Below, in pieces: positions 1 through 64,000 of a stretch of DNA of 64,000 nt. The position numbers and the translations under genes are program-made. The DNA comes from Dictyostelium discoideum (taxonomy: Eukaryota): NCBI GenBank assembly GCA_000004695.1, contig CM000151.3:6368001-6432000 (forward strand), in the 5' to 3' direction. Under the pieces are notes generated by a model. It worked only from the letters and a program-made list of their open reading frames with translations, had not been told where the DNA came from and did not search any database. How positions within the stretch are numbered: the first letter of the stretch is position 1; every line of letters starts with the position of its first letter.

Positions 1-3000
1 CTGTTACTTTAAATGATGTTATAACAGCAGGTGGCCCAGTAACACTTAATGGACAATTTTTAAATGTTGATACATCTCTAAGAGTTAAAATTCAAGATGT
101 AGATTGCCAAGTTTTAAGTGTAACACCTACTCAACTCCGATTTATTAGTCCACAGAAATCTTCAAGTGGTTCAAATACGTTTAGTTTAATTGTTGGTGGT
201 TTTGAATATACAGCAAATATTAATTATGTTTATGGCACTGCACCAATTTTTGATAACAAATATTCATGGAAAACAGTTGATGGTAAAAGTGTATTGGCTC
301 TTAGTGGTAAATATTTTTCACAATTTTCAAACAATATTATAAATGTTAATGGTAATGAATACACCGCAAGTATTACAAATGCAGCATTTGGTACTCAAAC
401 TTCCATTAGTCTTTTAAGTGATGTTCCAACAAATTCAATAGCTGTAGGAGCATCATTCCAGGTTTCAGTTAAAGTTGGAGGACAATCATCAGATACTAAA
501 AGTTTTAACTTTTTTAAACCTTCGGTTACTAAAACAACTTCATTATTAGATATTGGTGGTGTTGCAGTTTTCGAAGGTACATTTGGTATGGGTGAAGTTT
601 CTTCTATTAGGTCATTAACTATTGGTTCAATAACACCAGTTATACAAACTTTAAATACGACAGCTATTAAATTCCAATATTCCAGTCAAAATGCTGGTAC
701 ATATAATATGATTTTAAATATGGGAGGTTGTGAATCAATTACATCTATAACATATTCAACCACACCTGCACCAATTATTAGTAAATATACATGGCAACAA
801 TCTAGTAATATTTTAAATTTATTTGGTCAATGGTTTGGTTATTATGTTTCAAATTTGGTTTATATTAATAATGGTAATGCTAATACAATTCAAACAGCTA
901 CTCTTTCTTCTGGATATGATGTTCTTTCTTTATCACCATCTGTTTTACCTTCAATTGGTGATTCATTTACTGTTAAAGTTACAGTTAATGGTAGATCAAC
1001 AACATCAAATTTTGTTTATATTCAATCGGTTTCAATGACAACTCAATCATTAATTAAAACGGGTGGTATTGCAACATTTACAGGTTTATACACTGTTTCA
1101 AATCCAAATGTTGTATCACTTAAAATTGATGGTACTCAATGCCAAATATCAGTAATATCACCAAATTCTATTAAATTTAAATACCCTTCAAAAGCTATTG
1201 GTCAATATTCACTTTTAATTAATATTGGTGGTTTTGAATATACTACAACAGTTCAATATATAGATCCACCAACACCAACACTTTCAAATTCTTATAGATG
1301 GTCTAATACAGGAGAATTAATTTTCACTGGTACTGGAATAAGTTATGTAAATCAAAATCAATTAATTATTAATGGCGTTCCCTATGATGCTACTCTTGCA
1401 GTTGATTCTCAAGTACCAGGTTTTGATGATATTACATTTACATCTTCATCATTACCAACAACATTATTACAAGAAGACCAATTGTTTACTGTTCAAGTTT
1501 CAACAAATGGTTTGGTTTCAAACATAGTAACTTTTAACTTTATAAAAAAGATTATAATGAATGTTACTGATATCTATAGTATTTCTGGATATAAAGGTAG
1601 TGCTTATACAAATTTCACTGGTACATTTGGTACATCAAATACATCGATCGTATCATTAACTATTGATAATGTTCCATGCACAATTTATTCAATTTCACCA
1701 ACATCAATTGTTTTTTCAAATAATTTTAATATTAATTTAGGAAATTGTATTTTATTATTAAACATTGGAGGATTAGTTTATTCAACATCAATCAATGTTG
1801 TTGTGGTACCAAATCCAAAACTTTTAACAACTTATAATTGGATTTCAAATGATAATATGGTATTTTATGGTTCAACATTTTGTCATAATGCAGAAAATAT
1901 AGCTAATATTAATGGTGTAGGGTATGGAACATCATACGCCTATTCAATCAATGGTATTGATCAAATTTATTTTGATGTTAACCTTTTAATTTCATCATTA
2001 ACCATTGGTCAACCATTCACTGTTAAAGTTCATTCTGGTGTTGGATATTCAAATTTAGTTTCGTTTTTATATATAAAATCAATTTCAATCAATACTGTTG
2101 GTATTTATAATATTGATGGACTTGGAAGTTTATCTACAATTTTTTATGGCTCATTTAGTACATCAGATAGTAATTTTGTTTCATTATATATTGGAGAAGT
2201 TGAATGCACTATTAATTCAATTAGTCCAACTTTAATAAATTTTTCACACACTTCAAATTTTAAATTAGGTTCAAATGATTTACATATAAATATTGGAGGA
2301 TTTGAATATACTACAACAGTTTATGTTATGTCTGCACCAACCCCAATACTTTTAAATAGTTATTATTGGTCAGAGGATGATAATTTAATATTAAAAGGTT
2401 CAACATTTAATTATAAATCACAAAATAAAGTTAATATTAATAGTGTTGATTTTAATTCACCACCAGCTTTTTCAAATAATAGTATTGATCAAATTAAATT
2501 TAATGATAATTCAACAACTTCATCATTAACCATCGGTCAATCATTCACAGTTTATGTTAATAATGGTTTTGAAAATTCAAATTCAATAACATTTATATAT
2601 TTAAAATCAATTTCAATTAATACCCAAAGTTTAAATAATACTGGTGGTGATGCTACATTCTCTGGTGATTTTTATGTTTCAGATACATCTTTGGTTTCAC
2701 TTTTAATTGATAATGTTGACGTTCAAGTTACTCATATCTCTCCAAATAATATTTCATTCCAATATCCTGCAAAATCTAATGGTGAATATAATTTGTTTAT
2801 AAATATTGGTGGATTTGAATATTTAACAACTCTACAATATGTTACAAAACCAACCCCATCTCCTTCACAAACATCAGATTCTCAAACAACCGGATCTCAA
2901 ACAGCTGGAACTCAAACAACAGGTACCCAAACAACAACCACCCAAACAACGGGTACCCAAACAACAGGTACTCAAACAACAGGTACCCAAACAACAGGTA

Positions 3001-3215
3001 CCCAAACAACAGGTACTCAAACCACAGGTACTCAAACCACAGGTACCCAAACCACAGGTATTCAAACAACAGGTACCCAAACAACAGGCACACAAACATC
3101 TAGCAAACCAGATGAACCATCTGATGAAGAACACTTATCAGTTTCTTTTAAATTACCAATTTCGTTTATTTTAACACAATTCTCATTGTTTTTATTATTA
3201 TTGTTATTATTATAG
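1..3215 (+). CDS. 5'-partial gene for a large extracellular repeat protein (IPT/TIG-like beta-sandwich repeats, Tgr-like?) ending in a mucin-like (TQTTG)n tail and a hydrophobic C-terminus
   Basis: The frame is open from nt 3; the listed ORF 294..3215 starts at an internal TTG. At least four units of about 245 aa each contain two sub-repeats, '...SLTIGQxFTVKVxxNGxxSNxVTFxYIKSISINT...' and '...CxIxSISPxSIxFxYP....NIGGFEYTTTVxYv..P.P'. The tail has about 13 copies of TQTTG encoded by a 15-bp tandem repeat. The last 20 aa are hydrophobic (LPISFILTQFSLFLLLLLLL), a GPI-signal-like end. Confidence 0.6.
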   Translation, partial: VTLNDVITAGGPVTLNGQFLNVDTSLRVKIQDVDCQVLSVTPTQLRFISPQKSSSGSNTFSLIVGGFEYTANINYVYGTAPIFDNKYSWKTVDGKSVLALSGKYFSQFSNNIINVNGNEYTASITNAAFGTQTSISLLSDVPTNSIAVGASFQVSVKVGGQSSDTKSFNFFKPSVTKTTSLLDIGGVAVFEGTFGMGEVSSIRSLTIGSITPVIQTLNTTAIKFQYSSQNAGTYNMILNMGGCESITSITYSTTPAPIISKYTWQQSSNILNLFGQWFGYYVSNLVYINNGNANTIQTATLSSGYDVLSLSPSVLPSIGDSFTVKVTVNGRSTTSNFVYIQSVSMTTQSLIKTGGIATFTGLYTVSNPNVVSLKIDGTQCQISVISPNSIKFKYPSKAIGQYSLLINIGGFEYTTTVQYIDPPTPTLSNSYRWSNTGELIFTGTGISYVNQNQLIINGVPYDATLAVDSQVPGFDDITFTSSSLPTTLLQEDQLFTVQVSTNGLVSNIVTFNFIKKIIMNVTDIYSISGYKGSAYTNFTGTFGTSNTSIVSLTIDNVPCTIYSISPTSIVFSNNFNINLGNCILLLNIGGLVYSTSINVVVVPNPKLLTTYNWISNDNMVFYGSTFCHNAENIANINGVGYGTSYAYSINGIDQIYFDVNLLISSLTIGQPFTVKVHSGVGYSNLVSFLYIKSISINTVGIYNIDGLGSLSTIFYGSFSTSDSNFVSLYIGEVECTINSISPTLINFSHTSNFKLGSNDLHINIGGFEYTTTVYVMSAPTPILLNSYYWSEDDNLILKGSTFNYKSQNKVNINSVDFNSPPAFSNNSIDQIKFNDNSTTSSLTIGQSFTVYVNNGFENSNSITFIYLKSISINTQSLNNTGGDATFSGDFYVSDTSLVSLLIDNVDVQVTHISPNNISFQYPAKSNGEYNLFINIGGFEYLTTLQYVTKPTPSPSQTSDSQTTGSQTAGTQTTGTQTTTTQTTGTQTTGTQTTGTQTTGTQTTGTQTTGTQTTGTQTTGIQTTGTQTTGTQTSSKPDEPSDEEHLSVSFKLPISFILTQFSLFLLLLLLL
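2878..3095 (+). repeat. 15-bp coding tandem repeat (ggtacccaaacaaca)n, about 13-14 copies, encoding TQTTG Thr-rich linker
   Basis: Direct read of the sequence. All frames on both strands are open across it, which produced the spurious ORFs 2839..3174, 2842..3099 and 2874..3134. Confidence 0.85.
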
Positions 3216-5736: not shown

Positions 5737-7785
5737 TTAACCAAGAGGATCTAAAAAACTTTGAATCAATGAATCACCATTAATTAATTTTGTTGTTAAA
5801 ATAATAAACTTCTTATTAGTTTGTTTACCCAAAAATCTTAAAGCTGAAATTTCTGAAAAAGTAACACCACCAACAAAAAATACCATTGAAACACCTGATT
5901 TTTCTATTGAATTTATATTATTACTATTATTTGTAACATCAGTATTTAATGTACCAGGAGAACCACTTGACGAAATTGGTGTATTATTACTATTTGTATT
6001 ATTATTTATATTATTTATATTATTATTATTATTATTATTTATATTATGATTATTATTATTATCATCATCATAATCATAATTTTCATTTTCATCATTATTT
6101 AAAGAAAGTGATGCAATTGAAGGCGCAGAACCAGAATGAACTATACCACTACCATTATTATTATTATTATTATTTAAAAAGAATAATTGATTTTCATCAA
6201 AAATTGGACCAGGTAATAATTTTAAAGTATTTTCAATTGATTTCCAACCAGTTTTAGAAGATGGTAAAGAATATTGAACCAATCTAATTAATAGTGGAGC
6301 ATAACCAGAGTAAACGTAAGAGAAATCAGAAGGATCAATTTCATTGACATCATCAATTATTAAATTTAAATCCTCTTTAATTTGTTGAAAATTACCAATT
6401 GGTTTTGAATCTGATTTTCTAATTTGAATAAGACCAACTTTTTCAAGTTGTGATAATTGAATTAACCATTCTATGCCATAGTTTGAGATGATTTTAGATT
6501 TAATGAATTCATAATCATTCAATGGTAAACCATTATTAGTTAAACTATACAATGATAATAATCTAAGTACTTTTAAAATTGGATCTTTAATAGTGATACA
6601 TTCTTGAATATATCTATCGGCTAAATAAATATCATCTGAACCTAATAATAACTTTTGTTCACAATCTAATCTATTTTGAAAATAAGTTGATGCAGTAATT
6701 TCATGAATTTTCTCTGCAATTCCAACATGAACATGTAAACAAAATTCCTCTTGCTTACTAGAGTTTACACGTTTCATTAAATCACGTAATGCTGTTAAAC
6801 TTTCTGATCCAGTTAATTGTTTCTTTTCATCATAATATTGTTGTTTAGCTTTTGAATTTAATACACCACCTGGTCCCATTAAACTTGAAAAATTCATATC
6901 TCTAACTTGTGAAAATATTTTATCACCACTATGTAATGGAAATGATGATTTTTTATTATAATACATTGATCCACTATTATTATTATTATTTCTTTTATTA
7001 TTTTGATTATTATTTTGATTATTATTTTGTTGTGATGAAATACTATCATTTAAAATTTGACTATCAATTAATAAAATATTATTATTAATTGAAAAATATT
7101 CATCAATTAAACCTTCATATGTTAGAGGTGTACATAATGGTGTAATTAAATCAATATCACGATCAATAAACATAATTGAATCAATTTCTTTTGAAATTTC
7201 TAAAGATCTAATTGAATTTTGATTATTTTGATTTAAATCTCTTTGTTTTTCATTTCTAAGTCTTGATAGAGTTTCAACGATTAGCTTTGAAACTTTACCT
7301 TTACCTTTAATTGTTGGAATTAAACCAAATATCGATTGAAGTTTCATTACTGATTTTGATATATCATATGCAATCGATTTATTATTCTCCATTAAATATT
7401 CTCTATAGGAATTTGGTGATTCAAATGATAGTACATCATTATCCAATGGTATTAAATCCATTGACATTGATGTAATCGTTGAAAAATTACCATAAACACC
7501 TTGTTCCTCTAATATTGAATCACAAATTGGATCTACTTTTGGTATATAAATCATTGAATAATTCTTTTTAACATAATCATATAAATGACCTCTAATATGT
7601 TCTGATATGAAATTCATATACTTTACATTTGGTCTAATTAAATAAATTATGTTCTTTGATTCAGTTTCTAATTTACCTGATTTTAATTCATAAATTTTAT
7701 CAATACCATTTTGTTTTAAAAATATTGGATCTAAAAATAAATTCATTAATCCAATAATTTTTGAATCAATAATTAATGATGTTAA

Positions 7786-7859
<74 letters not shown>

Positions 7860-8313
7860 TACTAATATTATTATTATTTAAAATATTATTATAATTTGTA
7901 CTATTTTGATTATTATTATTTTGATTATTTTGAGATGATAAATTTGGTGATAAATTTGGAGGTGTTGAATTATTAATTAAATTTAAATTATTAATTAATG
8001 ATTGTTCATTCCTTATAAAATCTAATGCATCAATAAAATTTAATTTATATTGTTCTCTTAATGGTTCAAAATTTAATATTGATGATACATCTGTAGTTTG
8101 ACTTAAAATAGTTGGTTTTGGTTGTACATTATTTGCATTTACATTTGGGTTATTATTTAATGGTACTGTTTTTCTATTAAAAAGATTATTAACGACACCA
8201 TTAATACCACTACTCTCTCTTTTCTCTTCACTTGTATTAATACTTTCTTTATTATTTTGACTATTTTGATTATTATTACTATTAATAATTGGTTTTTTTA
8301 ATTTATTAAACAT
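5737..8313 (-). CDS. vps33: Sec1/Munc18-family protein, Vps33-like, with long poly-Asn insertions
   Basis: Continuous 858-aa ORF. C-terminus '...VFFVGGVTFSEISALRFLGKQTNKKFIILTTKLINGDSLIQSFLDPLG' matches the Vps33 signature (GGxT[FY]SEIaALRFL ... LTT..ING.S). Central '...LTALRDLMKRV...CLHVHVGIAEKIHE' is Sec1-like. A coding (AAT)n microsatellite around 7790-7860 gives a run of 24 Asn. Confidence 0.6.
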
Positions 8314-8611: not shown

Positions 8612-9820
8612 TCACTTTCCTTCAAATTCAATAAAATGTTCGAAAAATGGTGGTAATGAAGAAGGAAATTTAATAGTTGGAGTAATTTCCCAATATGAAC
8701 AAACTCTAGGTGAAGAAGGATGATATTGAAAACATTTCATTTCATTATGACAAGTATCATCTTCACATGATTCAAATTCACATTGTTGACTTGTAGTATT
8801 ACAAAATTGATTGGATAAACATGTACCACCGAAACAAATGGGTGTATTATTTATACTTTGCAAATTTCTTTCAAATTCTATACAAACACCACTCCAACCG
8901 AACTTTCTACAAATCCAACCAGTTGGACAATTACCACATTCAAATATTTCATTAAAGAAATTAAATGATCCATATGGTATACATAATGCACTATTTAATG
9001 GATTATACGTTGAACATTCAAAACCGCTTGGACAACTATTATTTGATAATTCACATGAAACAGTTTGATTTGTTCTTTCAACTATAATTTCACCACTACC
9101 ATTATTATTATTATTACTATTATTATTGATTAAAACAGTTGTAGTTGTTAAATTCTCTATAACTTTAAAACATGATACTATACCAACTCCAATAAGTGGT
9201 AAACATTCAGTACCAACATCACATTGAACTATATCGCAACTAGTGGGTAGACATGTTTTGACATCGTTCACCATCCTACAAACATATCCATCAACACATG
9301 GTAAATCACATCTTGTTCTTCCAAATATTATTTTACTATTTATACTCTTTAAAAAATTGGTACAAACTGGTTCAGGTTGACAACATAATGATTCAGGTTC
9401 TTCACAATCTGCCACTGATTCATAAATACAATCAAATCCTTTACTTTCACAATTTAATTCTTTACAAGTTATATTTGGTATTGGTATAATTTCGTAACCT
9501 GGTATTTCATTAATATCACCCCATAGTTCATAGAATACACCAGTTTGAAGATTTCTTAAACAATTTTGAATCTCTAATTTTTTATTACTTATATAACCAA
9601 TTACTGTATCGATTTCTAAACATAATGAAACTTGTCCTGGACAACAACTTGTTAAAATTAATGACATACACATTGGATATGCCGCTAAACATAATTCTGA
9701 TGATAATGTTTCACATCCTGTTAAACAATTAATTTTTGATTTATTTTCAATCTCTATTATTATTAATATTATTATTATTATATATTTTATTATTTTAAAT
9801 TGTTTATTTATATTTATTTT

Positions 9821-9823
<3 letters not shown>
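8612..9823 (-). CDS. Secreted cysteine-rich protein (more than 45 Cys), unknown function
   Basis: ORF 8612..9892. The first 23 codons are poly-K read out of an oligo(A) tract. The likely start is the second ATG at 9821-9823 (MKININKQFKIIKYIIIIILIII, signal-like). Dense Cys spacing (CLTGCETLSSELC..CCPGQVSLC..CEEPESLCCQPEPVC...) suggests EGF/disulfide-knot-like extracellular modules. Confidence 0.5.
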
Positions 9824-9864
<41 letters not shown>

Positions 9865-10089
9865 TTTTTTGTTTTTTTATTTCAGATTCCATATATGGAA
9901 CAAGAAATAAATAAATAAAAATGACTATATATGGTTTAAATTTGAATTTGAATATTTATGTTTTTTATTTGGTCAAACCGTATAAAATAACAACAATATA
10001 CCATTATTTTTAACAGCTAAAATATTAATGAATGGTGAAATCATATTAATATTAATATTATTGTTGTTATGTCGCACCACACACCCCCC

Positions 10090-11294: not shown

Positions 11295-11376
11295 AAACAT
11301 CAAAGACATCGTAGCAAAGTGGTCTAATGCGTCTGACTAGAAATCAGATCCCTTCGGGGGCGCAGGTTCGAACCCT
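11295..11376 (+). tRNA. tRNA-Ser (anticodon AGA)
   Basis: 82 nt. Acceptor gacatcg/cgatgtc, 3-bp D-stem (class II), anticodon stem tctga/tcaga with loop ct-AGA-aa, 13-nt variable arm (cccttcggggg), T-arm gcagg-ttcgaac-cctgc, discriminator G. A box tagcaaagtgg, B box ggttcgaaccc. Confidence 0.85.
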
Positions 11377-11480
11377 GCCGATGTCGACTATATCTTTTAT
11401 CCTTAATCCAATTTTTTTAATCAAGATATTGTTAATACCGCTTTTAGGTAAAAAAAAAAAAAATCAAGATATTGTTACAT

Positions 11481-12616: not shown

Positions 12617-12621
<5 letters not shown>

Positions 12622-15600
12622 AGTAGTTGGTGTTATATGAGCAGTATGGTATGAAGTGTTCCGGGATTTTTATGGTCATGAGTTTCGAGTTCCAGTTGTG
12701 GCTGAATTTTTCGAGTCTTCTTTTTATTGATGCGGTCCGATTGATTGACTCTCGGTTATCAGTGCATCTTAGTTCTTGACGTAGTTGTTTTTCTACTATC
12801 TTTCTTGTTCTATCCCATTCGGCATCTCTCGCTTTTTTTATTTTATGAATTATTTGGTTCTCTGTTATTATTGTAGTGTTATCGTTGAATTTTATTTGAT
12901 TTCTTCTGTACCATATCGATTCCATAATGGCTCCTATCAGATTTGATGAGAATGGTGTGAGTAGTTTTCCGAGAACTTTTTCGCTCCATGGACCGTGGTA
13001 AGTGTTGTTGGAGTCTTTACAGACCTTTTGATAGATTGAGTCGATATTCTGTTTTATTGATTTGCATTCGAAGAAGATGTGCATAGACGATTCTTCTTCT
13101 TTACATGAGTGGCAATTCTCCCCATGGTGTTTTGGAAGTGCCTTGAGTAGATATCTCCATGCTAAGTCTCTTCCTTTGATAGTTGTGATTGATCTGGCTT
13201 CTCTAAATGGTAGAATTGGGTGATTAATGTTCTTTTGAATCAGTTTTTGACCTGTTGTTGGCTGGTGTTTGTTCCATCCCTTGTATTTGATATCCATCAT
13301 GTTTCTATAGATTACTTTTAATTTTTGTTTGTTTTCGTATTTGGGTTTGACTTGGTTTAGTTTGAGAGTTATTCGCTCTCTTGGGTGGTGCAACAACTTC
13401 CAGGCTTTCCAGCATTTGATGTGAATCCTTGATAGTGAGTTTTCTTTTTCCGACTTCCAGACTTCCATATGTGGAGGGCAGTTCTGGTCGTCTTTTTCTC
13501 TGAGGTATTGTTCGTATATCCATGCTTTCTGGGCATTGGATCTGGTTGCCATATTCCAGAGTTCCAGGCCTCCAATTTCATAGTCTCTTCTGCTCCTTTC
13601 TTTTGAGATAGCCCACCTGTCCCCTTTGAATAACATGTTGGCATTAACGTTCTCCAGTTTCTTTATGTCATTTATTTCGTTGATGTATAGTTGGAATGTT
13701 AGTTGGGACAGCAGGTATGATTTGAGGATTGTGATTCTACCTTTTAGCGTTGATGACACGCTCGAATAGCATTTTGTGAGGTTTTCCAGTTTGTTCACCG
13801 TATCATCTACTTTGCTTATTACACCTTTGCGGTTGAAGAAAAAGCCAAGATATCTTTCTTCTTCTTTCGCCCCAATTGTCTTATATTTGGTCTTTATCTT
13901 TGGGTTTTTAGTGATGCACACACATTTATTATCGTTTATTTTTGCTGCTGTGGCTTGGCAAAATTTTATAACTTTCATATCCATTTTATCTGCGTCATCT
14001 ATGTTACTGGCTAGTGTGACTGTGTCGTCTGCATATTGTCCAATCTTCATCGAATTGTTCTGATTGAGTTTTATGCCTATTATGGTATTGTCTTTTCTTA
14101 TTGATGTTGATAAGCATTCACATACTATAGCGAAGAGAGTTGGTGAAATTGGGTCGCCCTGTTTTGTACCTCTTCCTGCTCTGAAGGATTCAGAGAGTTG
14201 TCCATTTACCATGACCCTTATGTTGGTGTTCGTTAACATGCTTAGTATTGTGTTTGTTATTTTCCGAGGGAACTTTAGATGGTTTAGAGTCCTTATTAAC
14301 GCTTTATGAGATATTGAATCGAAGGCTTTTTCGAAGTCATAAAAGGTGATTATCGTGTTTCTATCACTCTTTTCCATTGCTAAATCCAAAGCTATAATGT
14401 TGTTGTGGAGTAGCCTTCCTGGTATAAAACCGTTCTGGTACTTTGAGATTATGTTTGGCAGGATTTTTAGTATTCTATTGTTGATTATTTTTGAGTAGAT
14501 TTTGTAGTCTACGTTGAGTAACGTTATTGGTCTTCTGTTTGAGATTTCCAAGACATCCCCTTTACCTTTGTATATTGATGTAAGGATACCGTTCTTGAAT
14601 TCTGTTGGAATTTCATTGTTTAAAAAGAAGTTGAATAGTTCTGTGAGGATTGGAATTAGTTTGTGTTGGTGGATTTTATAGAATGAAGATGTTATTCCAT
14701 CTTCTCCTGGTGATTTACCTTCTGCTATCTTTTCTATTGCTAGCTTAACCTCATATTCTTCGATTCTGTCTTCCATCTCTGTTAATTTTTTTTTATCTAT
14801 TGGTGGGTTCCAGGTGCTTAGAAGTTCTGTATGTGTTTCTTGGTCGCATTCTTTCTCTTTGAAGAGTGTCTCGTAATATTTTCTGAAGCAATCTGTTATT
14901 TCTTTTTGTTCTGTTTCGATTTCTCCATTGGATGGGTTCTTTATTCTGTGAATCTGGGAGCTCGAGTCTCTTTTTTTAAGAATAGATGTAAGGAGATTTG
15001 ATGCTATTTCTTTATTGTTGATGTAGTTGATTGAGCTTTTGATCATTCTGTCTATTCTTTCTTCTTCTTGAAGTATTGTTATTTCGTTCGATATTGTTTC
15101 TTTTTCATATTTGTTTTTTGTTTTTGTGTGTTCATTTGCTAGATTTGATAGCGTTTTTTTTCTCTCTAGTATTCTTTTCTTTTCTGTTGTAATGCATTGT
15201 TTTTTTATTTTTTTTTTGAACTTAATCCAGTATTCCGTTATGTTAAGGTTTTTTCTTTTGGTTTCCTGGTAGTGGTCGATTATTTTTTCTATCTTTTTTA
15301 TTGTTTTATCTTCTTTAATTATTATTGAGTTCATTTTCCATAGGGGTGATTTGTATATTTTTGTGAAATTTGGTATTTTGAAATCCATCACTACTATGTT
15401 ATGGTCTGATTTGTTTATTTTATCTATTATCTTGTACGAGTGATTGAGTTGGTGCATCTTTGTTGATAAGAATGTTCTATCGATTAGTTTATCTTTGAAG
15501 GTTGTTTTAGTTGTTGAATTTGGTAGTATTTCGGTGAGTCCTACTTCCATCATTAGGAATTCTATTGTTTCATTTTCTGTGAATTTTCTCTTATCGGATG

Positions 15601-16048
15601 ATCCATCTTTGAACTTGATTTTTGCATATTTGTTGATGTTAAAGTCACCAGTAACTATGTCTGCCTGTTCTAGATCTTCAAGGGAAATATTGTTTGAAAA
15701 CCATCCTTTTCTTCTGTCATATGAGGCTGGTGCATAGATGCAAATTATGTTGATTTCCATATTGTTTAGAATTGCAGTAAATTTTAAGATTCTGCCTTCT
15801 TTTTCTTCCAAGTTTTTAATTTCTATTTGTTCTAGGTGATTTATTGCCATTACTCCTTTTCCTCTTGCTTCTTTTCCTTTTCCTCCTGTTGAGTAATGGT
15901 TTTTGATTTGCGCTAGATTTTGATCCTTTTTTAGATTTGTTTCTGTTAGTATTGATATATCAGGTTTTATTAGGTTAATTGTATTTTTTGTCTGATTCAT
16001 GCTTTTGATTGTTGAGCAACCTTGGCAATTCCAGGTCATTATTTTTAT

Positions 16049-16098
<50 letters not shown>

Positions 16099-16125
16099 TT
16101 TTTTTTTTTTTTTTTTTTTTTTTTT

Positions 16126-16163
<38 letters not shown>

Positions 16164-16165
16164 AA
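12617..16165 (-). CDS. TRE5 ORF2: apurinic-like endonuclease plus reverse transcriptase, with C-terminal Cys/His motif
   Basis: 1182-aa ORF. The first 38 codons are poly-Lys from a ~110-nt internal oligo(A). The functional start is probably ATG at 16049-16051 (MIKIMTWNCQG...) or ORF2 is reached by frameshift from ORF1 (+1 frame relative to ORF1). Confidence 0.8.
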
Positions 16166-17522
16166 ATGAGACAGATGGAAGTATGTCTTGGAGTACTTTG
16201 GGCAATTTGTCTCTTAGTGCTGCTTCCATTAGATCTGATTCTTCCTTTGTTATTTTAGTTGGAGTTTTGTAAGGTGTTGATATTTCTTGGTGATTAGTTG
16301 TTGGGTTTGGAGATGAGTTGGATCTTTTTCTTTTTACTGTCTCTGGGGTTGCTGGAGATTCTGGATTTTGGATAGGTGACATTGTTTGTCTTTTTTTGAT
16401 TGAGGCTAACCTTGGGGTTTCCTTCTTTTTTTGGTTATTTATTTTTTCTTCAAAAATTCTGTTCTCTTCTTCATTTTCGAACATCTTTCTTACCACTTCT
16501 AATGCTTCTTCATCTTCAGTTAACTCCATTTTCCTTTTCTCTTTGCTGTCAACACTATATGTTACTGTTATTGGTGGGACACGAAGTACTTTTCTCTTTT
16601 CAATATTGTTTATTGTGTTTGTCGTTTCTGTCGTTGTGGTTGTTGTAGTTGCTCTAATTGTTGTGGGTTTTTTATTTTCAATTTCGTTTTCCTTTACTTT
16701 TTCGTTTTTGCTCTTGTCTTTGATGTTGTCATTATTGATTTCTTTATTATTTTCTTTTCTGTTTTCTATTTTGTTTTTGTTGTTATTTTTTGATTCGCTA
16801 GTGTTTTTATGATTGGATTCTTCTTTTGATTTTATGTTTATTCTTGTGTTTTCCTTTATCTCGGGATTTGGTAGTTCCGTGATTTTTGAATTTTCTGAGA
16901 TTTCGTCTTCGATTTCCTTATTTGTTTTTCTTTGATTTTTTGTTTCTTCTGTTGTAGTGAGGAATAGTATTGTTATGTGTTTACAATGTATTAGCTGGTC
17001 TTTGTGCTCTGGACTGATAATTGAGTTGAATGAGTGTATTATCAGGTTTTCACCTAAATTATCTAATTTGATTATTTCCAGTCCTTCTTCATGCAATGTT
17101 TTTTCTACTATGTCCATTGATTTTTCCCAGTTGAATGTTTTGAAGATCTTTTTTGGTTTTATTATTGCTCTGTGAACTCCTTTTAGTACTCCGTTGAAAA
17201 CGTTAGAGTACTTGATTACTTGAGTTCTGCAGTCAGTTAGGATTTTGAATTTATTCTTACTTATTATTATCTTATCATCTCCTTGTAAATGAATTTCCAA
17301 TTCTGCTTTTAAGTTGTTGGAAATCTCATCTGGGATATTGATCATGAATTTATATTGTTTTAGTTCAATTTGAGTGTGGTATATTGCTTCGCTTATTTTA
17401 TCAAGTGTTCTGTACGTATTTTTTAAATATTTGAACTTTGTTCTGAGTTCATTTGATTTCTTGATTTTATCTGCCAATGTTTCTGTTGATTCTGTCATTA
17501 TTGTATTTGCCAATTTATTCAT
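16158..17522 (-). CDS. TRE5 ORF1 (454 aa, basic and Lys/Glu/Asn-rich nucleic-acid-binding type)
   Basis: Sits just upstream of ORF2 within the same element. The stop TAA is followed directly by the oligo(A) tract. ORF2 overlaps it by 8 nt in another frame. Confidence 0.7.
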
Positions 17523-18976: not shown

Positions 18977-19050
18977 GGGACTATAGTTTAGTTGGATATA
19001 ACGACCGGCTACGAACCGGTAGGTCTCAGGTTCGACCCCTGATGGTCTCG
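18977..19050 (+). tRNA. tRNA-Arg (anticodon ACG)
   Basis: 74 nt. Acceptor gggacta/tggtctc (two G-U pairs), anticodon stem accgg/ccggt with loop ct-ACG-aa, T-arm tcagg-ttcgacc-cctga, discriminator G. Confidence 0.7.
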
Positions 19051-19093: not shown

Positions 19094-19803
19094 GGTCAGC
19101 CCTAATCAATTTGAGGTTTGTGCAACGATAAAATAATCCAATTAATTTTCGAATAAAAGACCCCATACGATTTCCTGAAACAAATAATTAAATTAACTTT
19201 CAAATTTTATAGTATCCAAGAAACAATTCCCAAATCTAATCTCATTCGACCGATTACAATTTTTTTATCTGATTTATTAATATAATTTATTTAAATTTTA
19301 AAAACTAATATTTTAAAAAAAAAATGATAATTATAATAATAATAATAACTATATTTTACTACACTATATTTTAAAATTAAAATTCTTTTTTTGATAAATT
19401 AAAAAAGAATAACTATTTTACATTCCTGTATCGTTGCTTAGACAATAATCTTAGGATATATAATGAAGCAATGCCTTCTGCATGTAAACTTTTAAACAAT
19501 AATTAAAATAATAAAATATCTATTTTTCCAATTTAACATTTTTATTATAAAAAAAAACCTGTATCTTAGTTTTGAGAAATTAAAAATAATAATAATAATT
19601 ATAATAATAATAATAAAATGAATTTTCCTATATTTTAAATAAATAATAAAAAGTAATAAACAATTGTCTTTGTTTATTTTTTATTTTGTTTTAAAAAAAG
19701 TTTTATATTTTAAAAATTATTATATTCACTTTTTTTTTATTTTTTTTTTTTTTTATTTATTTATTTACTGTTATTACTTTTTTTTTTGTTTTTTTTAAAA
19801 AAT

Positions 19804-21569
19804 TTATAATTGATCATCATTATCTTGTGAAGATGGAGATAATCTAATTTCATCGTAAGGTGCAGCAGTTTTAGTTCTCATTCCTCTTGATTTTGCATGA
19901 GTTCTCCAAAGGAGGAAACCAACGACACCTAAAAGTATGGCAGTGATTGGAATGAAAATGGCGACAGCAATTTTAGCATCAGTATTTGGATCTTTATCAT
20001 TATCAGATTCAATACCACAACCACCTGGACAACCACAATCACCTGGCGAAGTTACACAAGAGGAAGTACAATAATCAGTTGAAGAACTTGAATTGGTAGC
20101 ACTATTATCCTCGAATAAATTTCTCGTATTGAAACGAGCGGTTGCATTACTACAATAGATTGCACCACCATTCTCTGAAGCTGAATTCATTGTAAAGTTT
20201 GCATCTCTAATGAAAAGTTGAGATTTAAAGTATGGCTCTGTATCCAATGCAAAAATACCACCACCTCTTGCTGCTTTATTTGATTGATAATTTGATTGTT
20301 GCATAAATATTCTAGAATCTAATAAATATGATCCACCACCATTCTCTGTTGCTTCATTTGAAATAAATGTTGCATTATAATATTGATTTGCCGAATTATT
20401 ATCAAATAATCCACTACCATTAATTGCTCTATAAAAAAAAATAAAAAAATAAATTATTAATTAAATATTAAATTTTTTATATTTTTTTGTATTATGCTTT
20501 TTTTTTTTTTTTTTTGTTCAAAACTTACTTATTTGAATCAAATAATAAATGATCCCAAGATACGGAAGTTATATCAGCAACGGCTAAAGTATATAAACCT
20601 CCACCAGATTTTAAAGCAGTATTTGAGATGAATTTATTGGAGGTCATTGTTAAATATTGATAAGCACAATAGACACCACCACCATTTATTGCATTATTAT
20701 TTTTAAAGATTGAATTTGTAATTTGAAGTTTAGCAGTACCAGATGGTAAATAAATAGCGCCACCATTACCAGCGGAAGCTTTATTATTTTCAAAGATACA
20801 ATTTTCAATATGAGCTGATGATTGTGAATTATAGAATAATGCACCACTTGTACCACCAACATTATCTTTGAATAAACAATTCTCGAATGATACTATGGTT
20901 GAACTAGTGGTGATAACAGATGCTTGACGGAAATCATCAGTTGAGAAACCACCATTTTTAAATTGTAAACCTCTTATTATGATTGGTGTTAATGCTGATT
21001 GGAAATAAATGATATATTCATTTGGTGAACTTCCAACAAATGTTGCATATCTATCAGTTGATGCCATTGGTAACAATGGTGAACTTTGATTGTATGTATA
21101 GCTGGCTTGTTCATCAATTGCTTGTATTAATATTGGGAATCTATAGAAAATATCACTAATTGTAATATATGTATTACTACCTGATCCTTTATATACTTTT
21201 TCATTATCATCTTTATCACTTGCTACAATATATATAACTCTTGTTATTGTTATATTCTTTGTATCGCATTCATTATTTATCATTGAAATTTTATCAATTG
21301 CTGATTTTAAATTTGAAAATGGGCTAAATAAAATTAATTTTAAAAAAAAATAAAAAAAAAAAAACTTAATATTTGTTTATGTCTTTATATTTTTTTTTTT
21401 TTTAAAAAAAAAATTTTGATTAATCTTACTTTGAAAAATTACCATTCTGAACCGTTGAATCTGCATCATATTTAACCCACCAAATACAAGTACTATTATA
21501 TGTTTGTGTTGATGCAACTTCTATTAATATATAAATACTAAATATTATAAACAAAATGAATTTTAATTT

Positions 21570-21572
<3 letters not shown>
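19804..21572 (-). CDS. Type I membrane protein composed of parallel beta-helix (PbH1-like) repeats; three exons
   Basis: Exons 21572..21431 (signal peptide MKLKFILFIIFSIYILIEVAS..., donor GTAAGA), 21323..20528 (acceptor TTTATTTAG, donor GTAAGT) and 20428..19804 (acceptor TTTTTATAG). Introns are 107 and 99 bp and phases are consistent. Repeats N-x-x-x-GG(A/G)(I/L)Y and x-NN-A-x-x-GG occur about 10 times. A Cys cluster, a TM segment (IAVAIFIPITAILLGVVGFLLW) and a short cytoplasmic tail follow. Confidence 0.6.
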
Positions 21573-21622
<50 letters not shown>

Positions 21623-42070: not shown

Positions 42071-46915
<4,845 letters not shown>

Positions 46916-50630: not shown

Positions 50631-53294
50631 GATTTTTTAACATTAACAAATAATAAAATTATTAGATATTGGAATAGAAATAATGGTGAATTATTATGGA
50701 GCTATGATACAAGTTTAGCAGTTGAAGGTAATTGTAATATTGCAGATATTATAAATAAAGATGGTATTATTAGAATATTATGTGATCAAGCAATTCTATT
50801 TATAAAGAGAGAGAAACAAGTTATAATATTATCAAATATAAATATTGATAATGGTATTGAATTGAAATCATTAAATTTACAAAATCTTTATTCAATCTCT
50901 AATAATAGTGATCAAATTAAATTTATAGAATTTGATTCAAAATTTAAAATTTTAACAACAACAAATAATAAAATTCAAAAATTATCAAATCCAATTCAAT
51001 CAAATCAATTAATAATAAATGAAAATCATTTAATAAATAAACAAATTTTAGTAATTTTAACAAAATCTTTTAATTTAGATATTATTAATATTAATAATAT
51101 TAATAATAATGAAGAATCAAAGATTTTCAATACAAATTTAAATAAAATTTTACCAAAAGATAATGAACAACAAGATTTAGAAATTAAATCAATTTCATCA
51201 ATTTCAAATAATAATCAATTTATAATTATTTTATCAAATGGTAATCATTTATTAGTTGAATTTAATATTGAAAATAATTCATTAGAAATTGTTAAATCAA
51301 TTAAAAGAACAAATATAATTAAAACTTCATCTACTGCCACTGCTACTACATCATCATCATCATCAATGAATTTATTAATTTATTTAATTAGTGGTAATGA
51401 AATTGAAGATGGTGAATATTCAATTGAAGTTGTGAATGGTGGTTTAATTGGTAGTGAAAAACTTTCAAGTATTTCAAAGAGATTTAATGGTTTCATTGAA
51501 AAGGTTACTAGTTTCAATGGATACATTTTAATTTCAATGTCAGATTGGTCAATCCACATGTTTAAATTAAATGGTGCAGTTGTTGAATCATTATGGTCAA
51601 GAGAAGAATCATTATCATTCATTCTATCAACTGAAATCATTGATTATCCATTACCTGATATTTCAAAATTAGCTCAACTTCAATATGAATTCAATGAAAC
51701 TGATGGTTTTTTCACTCATTTTTCAAAAAGAATTTCAACTCAAATTTCTGATATTTTTGGACTAACTACTACCACTGCTACCACTACTACCACCACTACT
51801 ACTACTGAAGAAAATGAACAAATTAAAAAAATTATAATTGTTACAACAAAATCAGGAAAAGTACTTGGATTAAATAGTAAAGATGGTAGTGTATTATGGT
51901 CAATTTTATATTTAAATTTTAATGATAAATTAAATGTAATGAAGGTTTATATTACAAAGAAAACAGTTTATGAATCACCAGAGGTTGCAATTATATTCCC
52001 ATTGTTGAATCAAGAGCCAAAGAGTTTAATTAGTTTTATTAATCCATTGGATGGAAAGGAGCGTAGTTATCGTATTATCAATCATAAGTTATTACATACA
52101 AATGTTCTCTCTCAATGGTCTGATCCAATAACTCATGCACAAATGATGTATTGGGTAATCAATTATCCAGTGGATCATCCATCACCAATGGTTACACTAT
52201 ATCCATGGAATGATAAAACTAGAAAACAATGGTCACGTTTAAAACAATACTATTTCTATTTAATTGATAAAGATCAGTCAGAGATTAAAGGTTACGGTAT
52301 CGAATCATTGGCAGATGGTAAACATGGTGGTATTAAATCAATTCCAACTTGGAATATTAAATTCAACAATGCCAAAATCATTGCCACCTCTTCAATGAAC
52401 CCTCATGAAATCATTCAATCTCCTGCTATCATTTTAGGTAATCGTGACCTTTTACCAAAGTATATCAATAGAAATATGATAACCATAGCCACTTTGGATG
52501 ATCAATCTAGTGTAGGTGCTGCTGCATCAGCAGTATCAGTGTTAACTATAACCTTGGTAGATTCAATCACTGGTGAAATTATTAAATCATTCAAACATCA
52601 ACATTCTTCAAATAAGATATCATTGGTTCAAACAGAGAATAGTGTAGTTTACTCTCATTATGATATAATGTCACAAACTCAATTGATTTCATCGATTGAT
52701 ATATTTGAGAGAAATATAGATTGGAAGACAGAGACAGTTTCAAGCTTTAATTCCACCACTGCCACTTTATCAGGTCAATTATCAGATCAATTAATAATTA
52801 AACATAAATCATTCGTTTTCGCTCACGGTCTTATTAAAACACTATCATTATCAATCACTGACAGAGGTATCACATCAAAACATATACTCGTTGGTTTAAC
52901 CAATGGTCAAATCTTACCAATAGATAAGAAATTCATAAATGCTCGTCGTCCATATCCAAGTGAAGTTACACCAAATGATGCTGAAGAACAATTGATTCCA
53001 TATAAACCAATACTTCAATTCCCACCTTGGTTATTTACAACCTATAATTCAACTGTACAAGGTTTAACAACTATCACTAGTACTGGAACTGATTTAGAAT
53101 CAACTTCTCTAGTTTTCGCTTATGGTCAACCAGATGTTTTCTGTGTCTTAATCACACCTTCACTTCCTTATGATATTCTCTCTGATCAATTCAATCATAT
53201 CTCTTTAATAGTAACATCTTTAACTCTTTTAATTTTAGCATTTGTCGCTAAAAATTATAAAAATTCTTTATTATTATCTAAAAAATGGAAATAA
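50177..53294 (+). CDS. emc1: ER membrane protein complex subunit 1 (EMC1) homologue, about 1000 aa; two exons
   Basis: Exons 50177..50516 (donor GTATGT) and 50632..53294 (acceptor AAAAAG), phase 1. Signal peptide. N-terminal 'YEEEIGKRDWSIRNIGQ...LNSSNGVQRWRQLL' matches the EMC1 'YEDQVGKFDWRQQYVGK...LNSRTGEILWRHV' region. The C-terminus has a TM segment. Confidence 0.6.
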
Positions 53295-62682: not shown

Positions 62683-63233
62683 TTATTTTTTAATAGTTTC
62701 ATCATCAATATCTTCTTCTATAATTTCATCATCATTTTCAATATCAAATTCATCACTGGTTTGATCATTTCCTTCTTCTTCTTGTTGTTGATTAATTAAT
62801 GGTTTTGATTTAATTAATTTATCTCTTAATTTATTTTCAATTTCTACTAAAAGATTTGGTTGAGTCTTTTCTAAAAGGTATTTAGTCTTTTCCCTACCTT
62901 GGTCTAATTTAATATCGTTATAACTATACCAAGATCCCATTTTATCTATAATTCCTTCTGCAACTGCAAGATCAATGATTTCACCAGTTTTATTTATACC
63001 AGATTGGAAATCAATATCAAAAATTGCCTCTTTAAATGGTGGTGCTAATTTATTTTTTACAACTTTTGCTTTTACTTGTGATGCAATAATATCATCTCCT
63101 TTTTTAACTGTTCCAACTTTTCTAATATCAATTCTAATTGATGAAAAAAACTATTCCAAAAAAAAAAAAAAAAAACAATAAATTAAAAAAAATAAAAAAT
63201 AAAAAAAATATTAATTATTTATAAATAAATATA

Positions 63234-63277
<44 letters not shown>

Positions 63278-63903
63278 ACCTTTAAAGCATTACCACCAGA
63301 AGTTACTTCAGGATTACCAAACATAACACCAATTTTCATACGAATTTGATTTATAAAAATTAAAACACAATTTGAATCTTTTAATGTTGGAGATAATTTA
63401 CGTAAGGCTTGTGACATTAAACGAGCTTGTACACCAAGATGAGAATCACCCATTTCACCTTCGATTTCAACTCTTGGAACCAAAGCTGCAACACTATCAA
63501 CAACGATAACAGACATTGTTTTTGAACGAAGTAAAGAATCAACGATTTCTAATGCTTGTTCACCATTGTCAGGTTGAGAAACGAATAGTTCATCTAAATT
63601 TACACCTAAACGTGCAGCCCATTGTGGGTTTAGTGCATGTTCAGCATCGATAAAAGTACAATTTCCTCCAGCTTTTTGAGCTTGAGCAATGACATGTAAT
63701 GCTAAAGTTGTTTTACCACTACTTTCAGGTCCAAATATTTCAGTGACTCTACCTTTTGGTAAACCTCCTACTCCTAATGCAATATCTAATCCCATTGATC
63801 CTGATGGTATAACTTCAACTTTTTGAGTTGAAAATTGGGACCCTAATTTCATTAATGTACCTTTACCAAAACTTTTCTCTAATTCTTTTAAAACATTCTC
63901 CAT
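62683..63903 (-). CDS. recA: Bacterial-type RecA recombinase (mitochondrial RecA homologue); two exons, N-terminal presequence exon probably beyond the window end
   Basis: Exon 63903..63289 (Walker [10 protein letters not shown]; '...[27 protein letters not shown]', donor GTAAAT) and exon 63150..62683 (acceptor GGAATAG; '[13 protein letters not shown]...[20 protein letters not shown]...'). The intron is 138 bp. The frame stays open upstream of the first ATG to a TAA at the window edge, with a TATATAG acceptor-like site near 63985, so the true 5' end is probably outside the window. Confidence 0.75.
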
Positions 63904-64000
63904 TGATGATGAAGATGCTGATTTTTTACTTGTTTTACTTGTTTCAATTTCTCCATCTTCATCATCTTCATCTTTCTTTGATTTCTCTATATAATGTTAA

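What the first reader, a model, noticed from the sequence alone, without database searches (positions are those of the whole stretch)
19804..21572. Three-exon gene for a signal-peptide, parallel beta-helix repeat, TM protein: an adhesin/lyase-like extracellular fold on a membrane anchor
Ten or more repeats of the NxxxGG(A/G)(I/L)Y / xFxxNxA type, typical of right-handed beta-helix (pectate-lyase-like, PbH1) domains, are followed by a Cys-rich stalk, a single TM helix and a 45-aa cytoplasmic tail. Such architectures are characteristic of bacterial autotransporters and polysaccharide lyases. Here the gene is clearly eukaryotic, with two AT-rich introns and canonical GTAAG donors.
Basis: partly seen in the sequence, partly recalled or inferred. 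Interest (0 to 1): 0.5.

Follow-up and report, generated by a model that had tools for sequence, protein, structure and literature searches.

The report
Membrane-anchored Pmp-type beta-helix protein gene
This is a real, already annotated but unstudied social-amoeba gene (Dictyostelium discoideum DDB_G0276193) for a cell-surface protein whose outer part is a rigid beta-helix rod of the kind bacteria such as Chlamydia use as adhesins; it is conserved in all social amoebae and is an interesting but not surprising member of a known kind.

Summary
On the minus strand, three exons (21572-21430, 21323-20529, 20428-19804) joined across two GTAAG...TAG introns give a 520-aa protein. It is identical to the annotated D. 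discoideum AX4 protein DDB_G0276193 (XP_643297.1, Q552D1), a hypothetical protein.

An exhaustive HMM search found single full-length orthologs across Dictyostelia. Intron positions and phases, one neighbour gene and native codon usage are conserved, so any bacterial origin predates the dictyostelid radiation, and no donor is identifiable.

Constraint is strongest in the TM helix and in a tail motif, [YF]D[ED]I[RKH]L. dN/dS is 0.05 there and 0.46 at the distal tip.

The best reading is a surface binding or adhesion receptor coupled to sorting machinery, parallel to the Trichomonas Pmp-like proteins. An anchored glycan-active enzyme is not excluded. It is a new member of a known kind, of modest interest.

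The parts
21430..21572 (-). Exon 1 (143 nt): ATG at 21572-21570, signal peptide (aa 1-21 = 21572-21510) and start of the mature ectodomain; ends in phase 2 inside codon 48
   Evidence: product identical to XP_643297.1; hydropathy
21324..21429 (-). Intron 1, 106 nt, GTAAGA...TTTAG, 7.5% GC, phase 2
   Evidence: same alignment column and phase in D. purpureum and in four close relatives
20529..21323 (-). Exon 2 (795 nt): aa 48-313. Carries the N-terminal cap (CxWW strand, helix 53-62, C29/C67), the irregular first turns of the beta-helix (to aa ~170, ending at 20957) and Pmp rungs 1-5
20429..20528 (-). Intron 2, 100 nt, GTAAGT...TATAG, 8% GC, phase 2. It interrupts the FDSN|K|A rung motif, which only the spliced mRNA restores
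   Evidence: N312 and A314 invariant in 14 orthologs
19804..20428 (-). Exon 3 (625 nt including TAA 19806-19804): remaining Pmp rungs, Cys cluster, TM helix and cytoplasmic tail
20092..20956 (-). Pmp-type repeat region, aa 171-425 (spans intron 2): 8 FxxNxA...GG[AGS][ILVFS] rungs plus one terminal FxxNxA, period 25-31 aa
   Evidence: Pfam PF02415 and TIGR01376 above cutoff; shuffle test and rung register; pLDDT about 85-98
20014..20076 (-). Five-Cys cluster, aa 431-451 (DYCTSSCVTSPGDCGCPGGCG); all five Cys invariant in 14 dictyostelid orthologs
   Evidence: 57% identity to non-group-4 species against 36% for the rungs
19909..19977 (-). Transmembrane helix, aa 464-486 (AKIAVAIFIPITAILLGVVGFLL); invariant I466, F471, P473, T475, L478, L479, G480, L485
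   Evidence: KD 2.7; AF2 helix 471-491; 71% identity across Dictyostelia; dN/dS 0.05 for TM plus tail
19807..19908 (-). Cytoplasmic tail, aa 487-520 (34 aa): basic membrane-proximal stretch (+4), conserved motif, acidic end, invariant C-terminal Leu
19840..19857 (-). Tail motif YDEIRL (aa 504-509), family consensus [YF]-D-[ED]-I-[RKH]-L. It fits YxxPhi in 12 of 14 orthologs; D505, I507 and L509 are invariant
21573..21615 (-). A43 homopolymer directly 5' of the ATG (T43 on the + strand): AT-only leader or promoter-proximal tract

Best explanation
The locus is the D. discoideum chromosome-2 gene DDB_G0276193. It encodes a type I membrane glycoprotein. SHOWN or strongly supported: a cleavable-looking signal peptide, and an ectodomain that is one continuous right-handed parallel beta-helix. 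The helix has an N-terminal cap helix, several irregular turns and then 8-9 regular Pmp-type rungs, in which the FxxN and GG[AG][ILV] motifs are buried structural elements. A five-Cys cluster closes the C-terminal end, followed by a short linker, one TM helix and a 34-aa cytosolic tail. The gene is single-copy, is present in all major dictyostelid groups and is under purifying selection. INFERRED: the beta-helix is a rigid rod, roughly a dozen turns long, that presents a binding surface to the outside. Its membrane-distal N-terminal part evolves fastest and is the likeliest ligand-facing end. The unusually conserved TM helix (with Pro and Gly) and the tail motif [YF]D[ED]I[RKH]L plus an acidic C-terminus couple the protein to conserved partners. 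The likeliest partners are adaptor or sorting machinery (YxxPhi-type signal), so the protein would cycle between the surface and endosomes. It would therefore act as a binding or adhesion receptor for prey bacteria, substratum, matrix or other cells, parallel to the Trichomonas Pmp-like proteins. The ligand is unknown.
Confidence: 0.5

Rival explanations
1. It is a membrane-anchored carbohydrate-active enzyme (lyase, hydrolase or epimerase). The beta-helix would form a substrate groove acting on bacterial capsule, amoebal matrix or slime sheath, or cell-wall polysaccharide.
Confidence: 0.2
2. The beta-helix part was acquired from bacteria by horizontal transfer and then fused to a eukaryotic stalk, TM and tail. 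This concerns origin and is compatible with either functional reading.
For: The Pmp repeat superfamily is huge, with 57,667 library proteins at E<=1e-3. The named hits are mostly bacterial (Deltaproteobacteria, Planctomycetota, Caldilineaceae, TA06, bacterium HR16 'PmpB'), and one top hit sits in a clearly bacterial operon context. Outside Dictyostelia only the repeat region matches, profile positions about 140-450. The two C-terminal-module patterns have no relative in 185,579 prokaryotic species genomes. The same scenario is proposed for trichomonad Pmps (PMC6701047).
Against: No donor lineage is identifiable: the best outside matches are 23-31% identical over about half the protein. They include eukaryotes, namely an animal-like contig with retrotransposon, Ig and Death domains, Pythium, and EukProt and EGF-containing proteins. 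The gene is in all dictyostelid groups, has two conserved phase-2 introns, a conserved neighbour and fully native codon usage (GC3 0.14, RSCU r = 0.97). Repeat-only similarity is a poor basis for phylogeny. Other Amoebozoa were not specifically examined.
Confidence: 0.3
3. It is an intracellular (Golgi or endosomal) type I membrane protein acting as a cargo chaperone or sorting factor, like yeast Psg1, rather than a surface receptor.
For: Pfam Psg1 (PF14610) matches residues 301-492 at E 2.5e-4, and 6 of 14 orthologs match at E<=0.01. The conserved TM and tail are typical of proteins whose function depends on trafficking.
Against: The score of 21.3 bits is below the curated cutoff of 30.1. The match spans the Asn/Ser/Thr-rich rungs plus the TM, so composition may be driving it, and 8 of 14 orthologs do not match. 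The beta-helix ectodomain has no counterpart in the Psg1 description.
Confidence: 0.07
4. It is an artefact: the three ORF pieces are not one gene, or the segment is bacterial contamination or a pseudogene.
For: No transcript data could be consulted here.
Against: There is an exact match to the reference annotation on the 8.48-Mb chromosome record. The reading frame runs continuously across both junctions in 14 species, and a rung motif is reconstituted by splicing. Intron positions and phases are conserved in six genomes. dN/dS is 0.24 overall and below 0.5 in every region. Codon usage is native.
Confidence: 0.02

Closest known systems
Trichomonad Pmp-like surface proteins (e.g. TVAG_140850, TVAG_249300; Handrich et al. 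2019, PMC6701047)
   Same: They are eukaryotic type I membrane proteins with N-terminal FxxN/GGA[ILV] Pmp repeats, and the bacterial autotransporter part is replaced by a single C-terminal TM domain. The short tail carries an endocytic-type motif and acidic residues. Similarity to the bacterial proteins is restricted to the repeats.
   Different: The trichomonad family is greatly expanded, whereas the dictyostelid gene is single-copy per genome. The trichomonad C-terminal signatures ATPITK and NPx[YWF] are absent here. Instead there is a five-Cys cluster, a highly conserved Pro/Gly-containing TM and [YF]D[ED]I[RKH]L, so the C-terminal modules look independently acquired. Adhesion is shown experimentally for Trichomonas and is untested here.
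Chlamydial polymorphic membrane proteins (PmpA-I; Pfam PF02415, TIGR01376)
   Same: The repeat type is the same and scores above the curated cutoffs. Paired FxxN and GG[AG][ILV] motifs with an Asn ladder form beta-helix rungs, as in the AF2 analyses of Pmps (PMC10715098). Non-canonical GGGx variants are used in the same way.
   Different: There is no Pmp middle domain and no autotransporter beta-barrel; no such Pfam hit appears at E<=10. The protein is anchored by an alpha-helical TM in a eukaryotic membrane and exported via a eukaryotic signal peptide. The rungs have short turns rather than long omega-loops, with period 25-31.
Acinetobacter baumannii Rhombotarget A (RbtA; PDB 9CDV/9CDU)
   Different: It is bacterial, identity is about 14-16%, and it belongs to a different anchoring system. 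NCBIfam found nothing but POMP_repeat in the amoebal protein, and the amoebal C-terminal module has no prokaryotic relative.
Pectate-lyase-like right-handed parallel beta-helix enzymes (AlgE4 A-module, PL6/PL9 lyases, GH28/GH87/GH110, phage tailspike depolymerases)
   Different: There is no family-level sequence match and no recognisable catalytic motif. The AX4 protein itself does not hit PF13229, and identity is 9-16%.

Membership tests
Pmp-type beta-helix repeat proteins (Pfam PF02415 Chlam_PMP / TIGR01376 POMP_repeat) | Repeat HMM score above the curated cutoff | tested here: met
   PF02415 31.0 bits against 20.6; TIGR01376 36.4 bits against 15; 14 of 14 orthologs match, best E 7.4e-18
Pmp-type beta-helix repeat proteins (Pfam PF02415 Chlam_PMP / TIGR01376 POMP_repeat) | Multiple paired FxxN and GGA[ILV] (or non-canonical GGGx) tetrapeptides at regular spacing | tested here: met
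   9 FxxN in the repeat region; 2 strict GGA[ILV] plus 4 GGG[VLSI]; 7 strict pairs and one variant; period 25-31 aa; 0 of 20,000 shuffles reach this
Pmp-type beta-helix repeat proteins (Pfam PF02415 Chlam_PMP / TIGR01376 POMP_repeat) | Repeats form rungs of a right-handed beta-helix | tested here: met
Chlamydial Pmp autotransporters (type V secretion) | C-terminal autotransporter beta-barrel domain | tested here: not met
   No autotransporter Pfam hit at E<=10. The C-terminus is a single hydrophobic alpha-helix plus a 34-aa tail
Chlamydial Pmp autotransporters (type V secretion) | Pmp middle domain between the repeats and the barrel | tested here: not met
   No such Pfam hit at E<=10. A 21-aa five-Cys cluster occupies this position
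Trichomonad Pmp-like TM proteins (PMC6701047) | N-terminal Pmp repeats plus a single C-terminal TMD in a eukaryote | tested here: met
Trichomonad Pmp-like TM proteins (PMC6701047) | Conserved ATPITK motif before the TMD | tested here: not met
   Absent from all 14 dictyostelid orthologs
Trichomonad Pmp-like TM proteins (PMC6701047) | NPx[YWF] motif and acidic cluster in the cytoplasmic tail | tested here: not met
   No NPx[YWF] in any ortholog. Acidic residues are present (DNDD), but the conserved motif is [YF]D[ED]I[RKH]L. The architecture is shared but the family signature is not
Pectin-lyase-like beta-helix superfamily (PbH1 / Pfam Beta_helix PF13229) | Right-handed three-sheet parallel beta-helix fold | tested here: met
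Pectin-lyase-like beta-helix superfamily (PbH1 / Pfam Beta_helix PF13229) | PF13229 / PbH1 HMM match | tested here: inconclusive
   Not matched by the AX4 protein at E<=10. Matched by 4 of 14 orthologs, best E 1.2e-8, and listed in the precomputed annotations of the D. citrinum and D. dimigraforme orthologs
Pectin-lyase-like beta-helix superfamily (PbH1 / Pfam Beta_helix PF13229) | Catalytic residues of a lyase, hydrolase or epimerase family in a groove | not testable with these tools
   Model coordinates and residue-level structural alignments are not returned. Only the list of conserved polar residues is available
Rhombosortase targets (GlyGly-CTERM proteins such as RbtA) | GlyGly-CTERM sorting signal | tested here: not met
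   NCBIfam scan at E<=10 returned only POMP_repeat. The C-terminus is TM plus a 34-aa charged tail
Yeast Psg1 / Ykl077w family (PF14610) | HMM score above the gathering threshold | tested here: not met
   21.3 bits against a cutoff of 30.1; 6 of 14 orthologs at E<=0.01, none reported above the cutoff

The most novel reading that the evidence does not exclude
Before the radiation of Dictyostelia, a bacterial Pmp-type beta-helix was captured and grafted onto a lineage-specific Cys-cluster/TM/tail module. The result would be a single-copy, deeply conserved surface receptor whose membrane-spanning and cytosolic parts, not its repeats, carry the most constrained function. That function could be partner binding within the membrane or regulated sorting or shedding. 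The receptor would mediate recognition of prey bacteria or of matrix glycans. It would be a second, independent eukaryotic 'domestication' of the Pmp adhesin scaffold, convergent with Trichomonas.
Probability: 0.2. Interest if true: 0.5.

Novelty: new member of a known kind. Interest (0 to 1): 0.25.

Why it matters
If the functional inference is right, social amoebae carry a conserved, single-copy version of a surface scaffold best known from chlamydial and trichomonad adhesins, in a genetically tractable organism. That would allow direct tests of how Pmp-type beta-helices bind ligands, and of how a bacterial-style adhesin scaffold is wired to eukaryotic sorting. The extreme conservation of the TM helix and the [YF]D[ED]I[RKH]L tail motif points to an unidentified partner worth finding. 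As it stands, the gene is an annotated hypothetical protein whose domain content is already in public databases, so the finding is useful but not surprising.

Tried and rejected
1. 'Orthologs restricted to group-4 Dictyostelium', as suggested by both word-indexed searches, is rejected. The exhaustive HMM search found full-length orthologs in all dictyostelid groups, so the restriction was a sensitivity artefact.
2. The search for the Cys-cluster/TM/tail module on other proteins (profile A4) returned nothing, not even the family itself. A local control gives 128-151 bits on family members, so one search is uninformative. Among the 299 proteins fetched at that point, only family members carry the module.
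3. The prokaryote genome scan used only the two C-terminal patterns. It found 179 pattern matches and no relative. It says nothing about the repeats.
5. Single-sequence phmmer against the PDB found nothing significant. The profile found RbtA.
6. There is no paralog elsewhere in the window.
7. The Psg1 match is below the cutoff and inconsistent across orthologs.
8. Literature searches for DDB_G0276193, Q552D1, XP_643297 and EAL69396 gave no papers. 'Dictyostelium' plus 'polymorphic membrane protein' retrieved only unrelated uses of the phrase.
9. Recent HGT or contamination is rejected on introns, synteny and codon usage.
10. AF2 over-prediction of beta-solenoids was considered. It is judged unlikely here because the repeats are diverged, PF02415 models are reported to be consistent across methods, and a related crystal structure exists.
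11. A class III PDZ ligand at the C-terminus is rejected: only the terminal Leu is invariant, and the -2 position varies.

Full report
**Observation.** The window is very AT-rich: 12-38% GC in 1-kb windows. Reading the minus strand of 19780-21620 and splicing 21572-21430, 21323-20529 and 20428-19804 gives a 1563-nt ORF of 520 aa plus TAA. Both introns (106 and 100 nt) begin GTAAG, end TAG and are 7.5-8% GC, against 23-34% GC in the exons. Left unspliced, both donors run straight into an in-frame TAA (ORF list). The product is identical over its whole length to D. discoideum AX4 DDB_G0276193 (XP_643297.1, EAL69396.1, UniProt Q552D1). NCBI calls it 'hypothetical protein' and UniRef calls it 'Right handed beta helix domain-containing protein'. 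It lies on an 8,484,197-bp record.

**Anatomy.** Hydropathy shows two hydrophobic segments only, residues 1-21 and 464-486.
- The first has the basic, hydrophobic and small-polar layout of a signal peptide. That character is kept in all orthologs although the sequence is only 17% identical.
- All ten N-glycosylation sequons lie N-terminal of the second segment. The first 12 tail residues carry +4 net charge. This argues for type I topology.
- Residues 171-425 hold 9 FxxNxA motifs, eight of them followed by a GG[AGS]x turn, with a period of 25-31 aa. None of 20,000 shuffles of the ectodomain reached the observed counts.
- Residues 431-451 contain five Cys in the pattern C-x3-C-x6-C-x-C-x3-C.

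**Family and fold.** Pfam Chlam_PMP (31 bits, cutoff 20.6) and TIGR01376 POMP_repeat (36.4 bits, cutoff 15) are the only significant family matches. The generic Beta_helix model PF13229 is not hit by the AX4 protein, but 4 of 14 orthologs hit it, and all 14 hit Chlam_PMP.

An AF2 model built from a 37-sequence alignment has pTM 0.77. It shows a continuous beta-strand solenoid from about residue 30 to 425, with pLDDT about 85-98 over the rungs and an N-terminal cap helix at 53-62. Residues 427-476 and 490-520 are disordered, and there is a helix at 471-491.
- Foldseek against the PDB returns only right-handed beta-helix proteins at E<=1e-3, led by Acinetobacter Rhombotarget A.
- A profile of the orthologs finds one PDB sequence only, Rhombotarget A, at E 1.3e-5. 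That protein is a cell-surface beta-helix protein of unknown function (PMC12643943).

AF2 is known to over-predict solenoids for near-perfect repeats. For PF02415, however, four prediction methods are reported to agree (bioRxiv 10.1101/2024.10.30.621056), and the repeats here are well diverged.

**Phyletic distribution.** The two word-indexed searches found full-length relatives only in group-4 species: 84-93% identity in the D. discoideum complex and 48% in D. purpureum. The next hits were 23-31% identical over about half the protein.

The exhaustive profile search corrected this. Single-stretch, full-length matches of 280-355 bits exist in Polysphondylium violaceum, Cavenderia fasciculata, Synstelium polycarpum, Heterostelium album, Acytostelium subglobosum, Tieghemostelium lacteum and one unnamed EukProt species. 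Each species contributes one sequence.

Everything else among the 57,667 hits at E<=1e-3 matches only profile positions about 140-450, mostly as giant multi-repeat proteins. The nearest outside proteins include:
- a gene in a compact bacterial neighbourhood;
- named bacterial MAG proteins;
- a gene on an animal-like contig with a retrotransposon Pol and Ig and Death domains;
- Pythium and EukProt proteins.

**Gene history.** Both introns sit in the same alignment column and the same phase (2) in D. purpureum and in four close relatives. Intron 2 splits the FDSN-K-A rung motif, whose N312 and A314 are invariant in 14 species. The upstream RNA-pol-I-A34-like neighbour is conserved with D. purpureum. 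GC3 is 0.14 and the RSCU correlation with neighbouring genes is 0.97. Recent transfer or contamination is excluded. An ancient acquisition of the repeat domain remains possible but unproven. The two C-terminal-module peptide patterns have no relative in 185,579 prokaryotic species genomes, which is consistent with a eukaryotic origin for that module.

**Where the constraint lies.** The table compares D. discoideum with the seven non-group-4 species for identity. dN/dS values are Nei-Gojobori estimates among five close taxa.

| Region | Identity | dN/dS |
|---|---|---|
| N-terminal part | 24% | 0.46 |
| Rungs | 36% | 0.19 |
| Cys cluster (identity) / stalk 426-463 (dN/dS) | 57% | 0.09 |
| TM helix | 71% | 0.05 (TM plus tail) |
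| Tail core | 68% | 0.05 (TM plus tail) |
| Whole protein | n/a | 0.24 |

- The juxtamembrane linker is only 10% identical.
- Invariant TM residues include P473, T475, L478, L479 and G480.
- The tail motif [YF]D[ED]I[RKH]L has D505, I507 and L509 invariant. It reads as YxxPhi (YDEI) in 12 of 14 species.
- The C-terminal Leu is invariant.
- Ten Cys are conserved: C29 (13 of 14), C67, C197, C223, C405 and the five of the cluster. This fits disulfide stapling of both caps, which is an inference.

**Mechanism.**
- Shown: a secretory-pathway type I membrane protein gene with a Pmp-type beta-helix ectodomain. It is single-copy, pan-dictyostelid and under purifying selection.
- Inferred: the rod displays a binding surface whose distal end evolves fastest. 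The TM helix and tail interact with conserved partners, most simply adaptor or sorting complexes.

The nearest described analogue is the trichomonad Pmp-like family. Those proteins combine Pmp repeats with a TMD and tails bearing endocytic motifs and an acidic cluster, and their expression raised adhesion (PMC6701047). In chlamydial Pmps the FxxN and GGA motifs are buried scaffold elements and surface loops are proposed to bind ligands (PMC10715098).

The dictyostelid protein lacks the trichomonad ATPITK and NPx[YWF] signatures. It also lacks the chlamydial middle and autotransporter domains. It therefore shares the architecture and the repeat class but is not a member of either family proper. 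An enzymatic role cannot be excluded from the fold alone, but no sequence evidence supports one.

**Verdict.** The gene and its domain content are already in public databases, and no publication mentions it. What this analysis adds:
- the pan-dictyostelid orthogroup;
- the conserved intron and synteny evidence;
- the gradient of constraint pointing to the TM helix and tail;
- the link to Rhombotarget A;
- the parallel with Trichomonas.

It is a new member of a known kind, of modest interest.

Noticed in passing
window 18977-19050 (+) and 11305-11386 (+); ORFs 12617-16165 (-) and 16158-17522 (-): There are two tRNA genes, Arg-ACG and Ser-AGA. tRNA-Arg lies about 750 bp beyond the stop codon of the Pmp-like gene. 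Between the two tRNAs lie two long ORFs, one with a reverse-transcriptase domain (RVT_1, 128 bits), in a stretch with strong AT skew of -0.3 to -0.6. This looks like a tRNA-gene-targeted non-LTR retroelement of the Dictyostelium TRE type; that naming is from general knowledge and was not tested.
   Followed up: partly
P0155 = XP_004350918.1 (Cavenderia fasciculata), residues 1-427 against 428-940: The C. fasciculata ortholog is annotated as the C-terminal half of a 940-aa 'ubiquitin-like domain-containing CTD phosphatase 1'. The ortholog part starts with its own Met and signal peptide (MKFILSLLLLL...), so the deposited model is very probably two neighbouring genes fused.
   Followed up: partly
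P0122 / P0123 (KAM9964826.1, KAM9966328.1; wild D. discoideum strains) against window 21572-21525: The 504-aa models of two other D. discoideum strains start at the position of AX4 residue 17 (I17M, E18D) and so lack most of the signal peptide. This is either a start-codon annotation difference or a polymorphism. Otherwise the strains differ from AX4 at 11-13 positions, mostly in the N-terminal part.
   Followed up: no
window 62698-63948 (-) against D. purpureum L005 8345-9466: A very conserved gene (up to 87% identity in tblastx) lies directly downstream of the Pmp-like gene in D. purpureum but about 43 kb away in D. discoideum. On the D. discoideum side the tRNA and retroelement occupy the adjacent position. 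This points to a rearrangement or insertion since the two species split.
   Followed up: no
protein residues 301-492 (window ~20466-19891, minus strand): There is a sub-threshold match to Pfam Psg1/Ykl077w (E 2.5e-4, 21.3 bits against a cutoff of 30.1), seen in 6 of 14 orthologs. It may be compositional (Asn/Ser/Thr-rich segment plus TM), but it recurs.
   Followed up: partly
window 21573-21615: A run of 43 consecutive T (A43 on the coding strand) abuts the ATG. The leader is therefore pure A immediately upstream of the start codon.
   Followed up: no
window 294-3215 (+), 5737-8313 (-), 8612-9892 (-), 42071-46045 (-), 50862-53294 (+), 54563-56587 (+): Other large ORFs in the window carry TIG/IPT, Sec1, Dicty_spore_N (spore-coat N-terminal), protein kinase, EMC1_C and class II aminoacyl-tRNA synthetase domains. 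None is related to the Pmp-like gene, and the window holds no paralog of it.
   Followed up: no
L003 5001-7544 (metagenome contig ERZ26694059): An 847-aa secreted Pmp-repeat protein with a Thr/Ser-rich C-terminal stalk lies on an apparently animal contig, next to a retrotransposon Pol and Ig and Death domain genes. Pmp-type beta-helix ectodomains are therefore scattered more widely in eukaryotes than the Trichomonas literature suggests.
   Followed up: no
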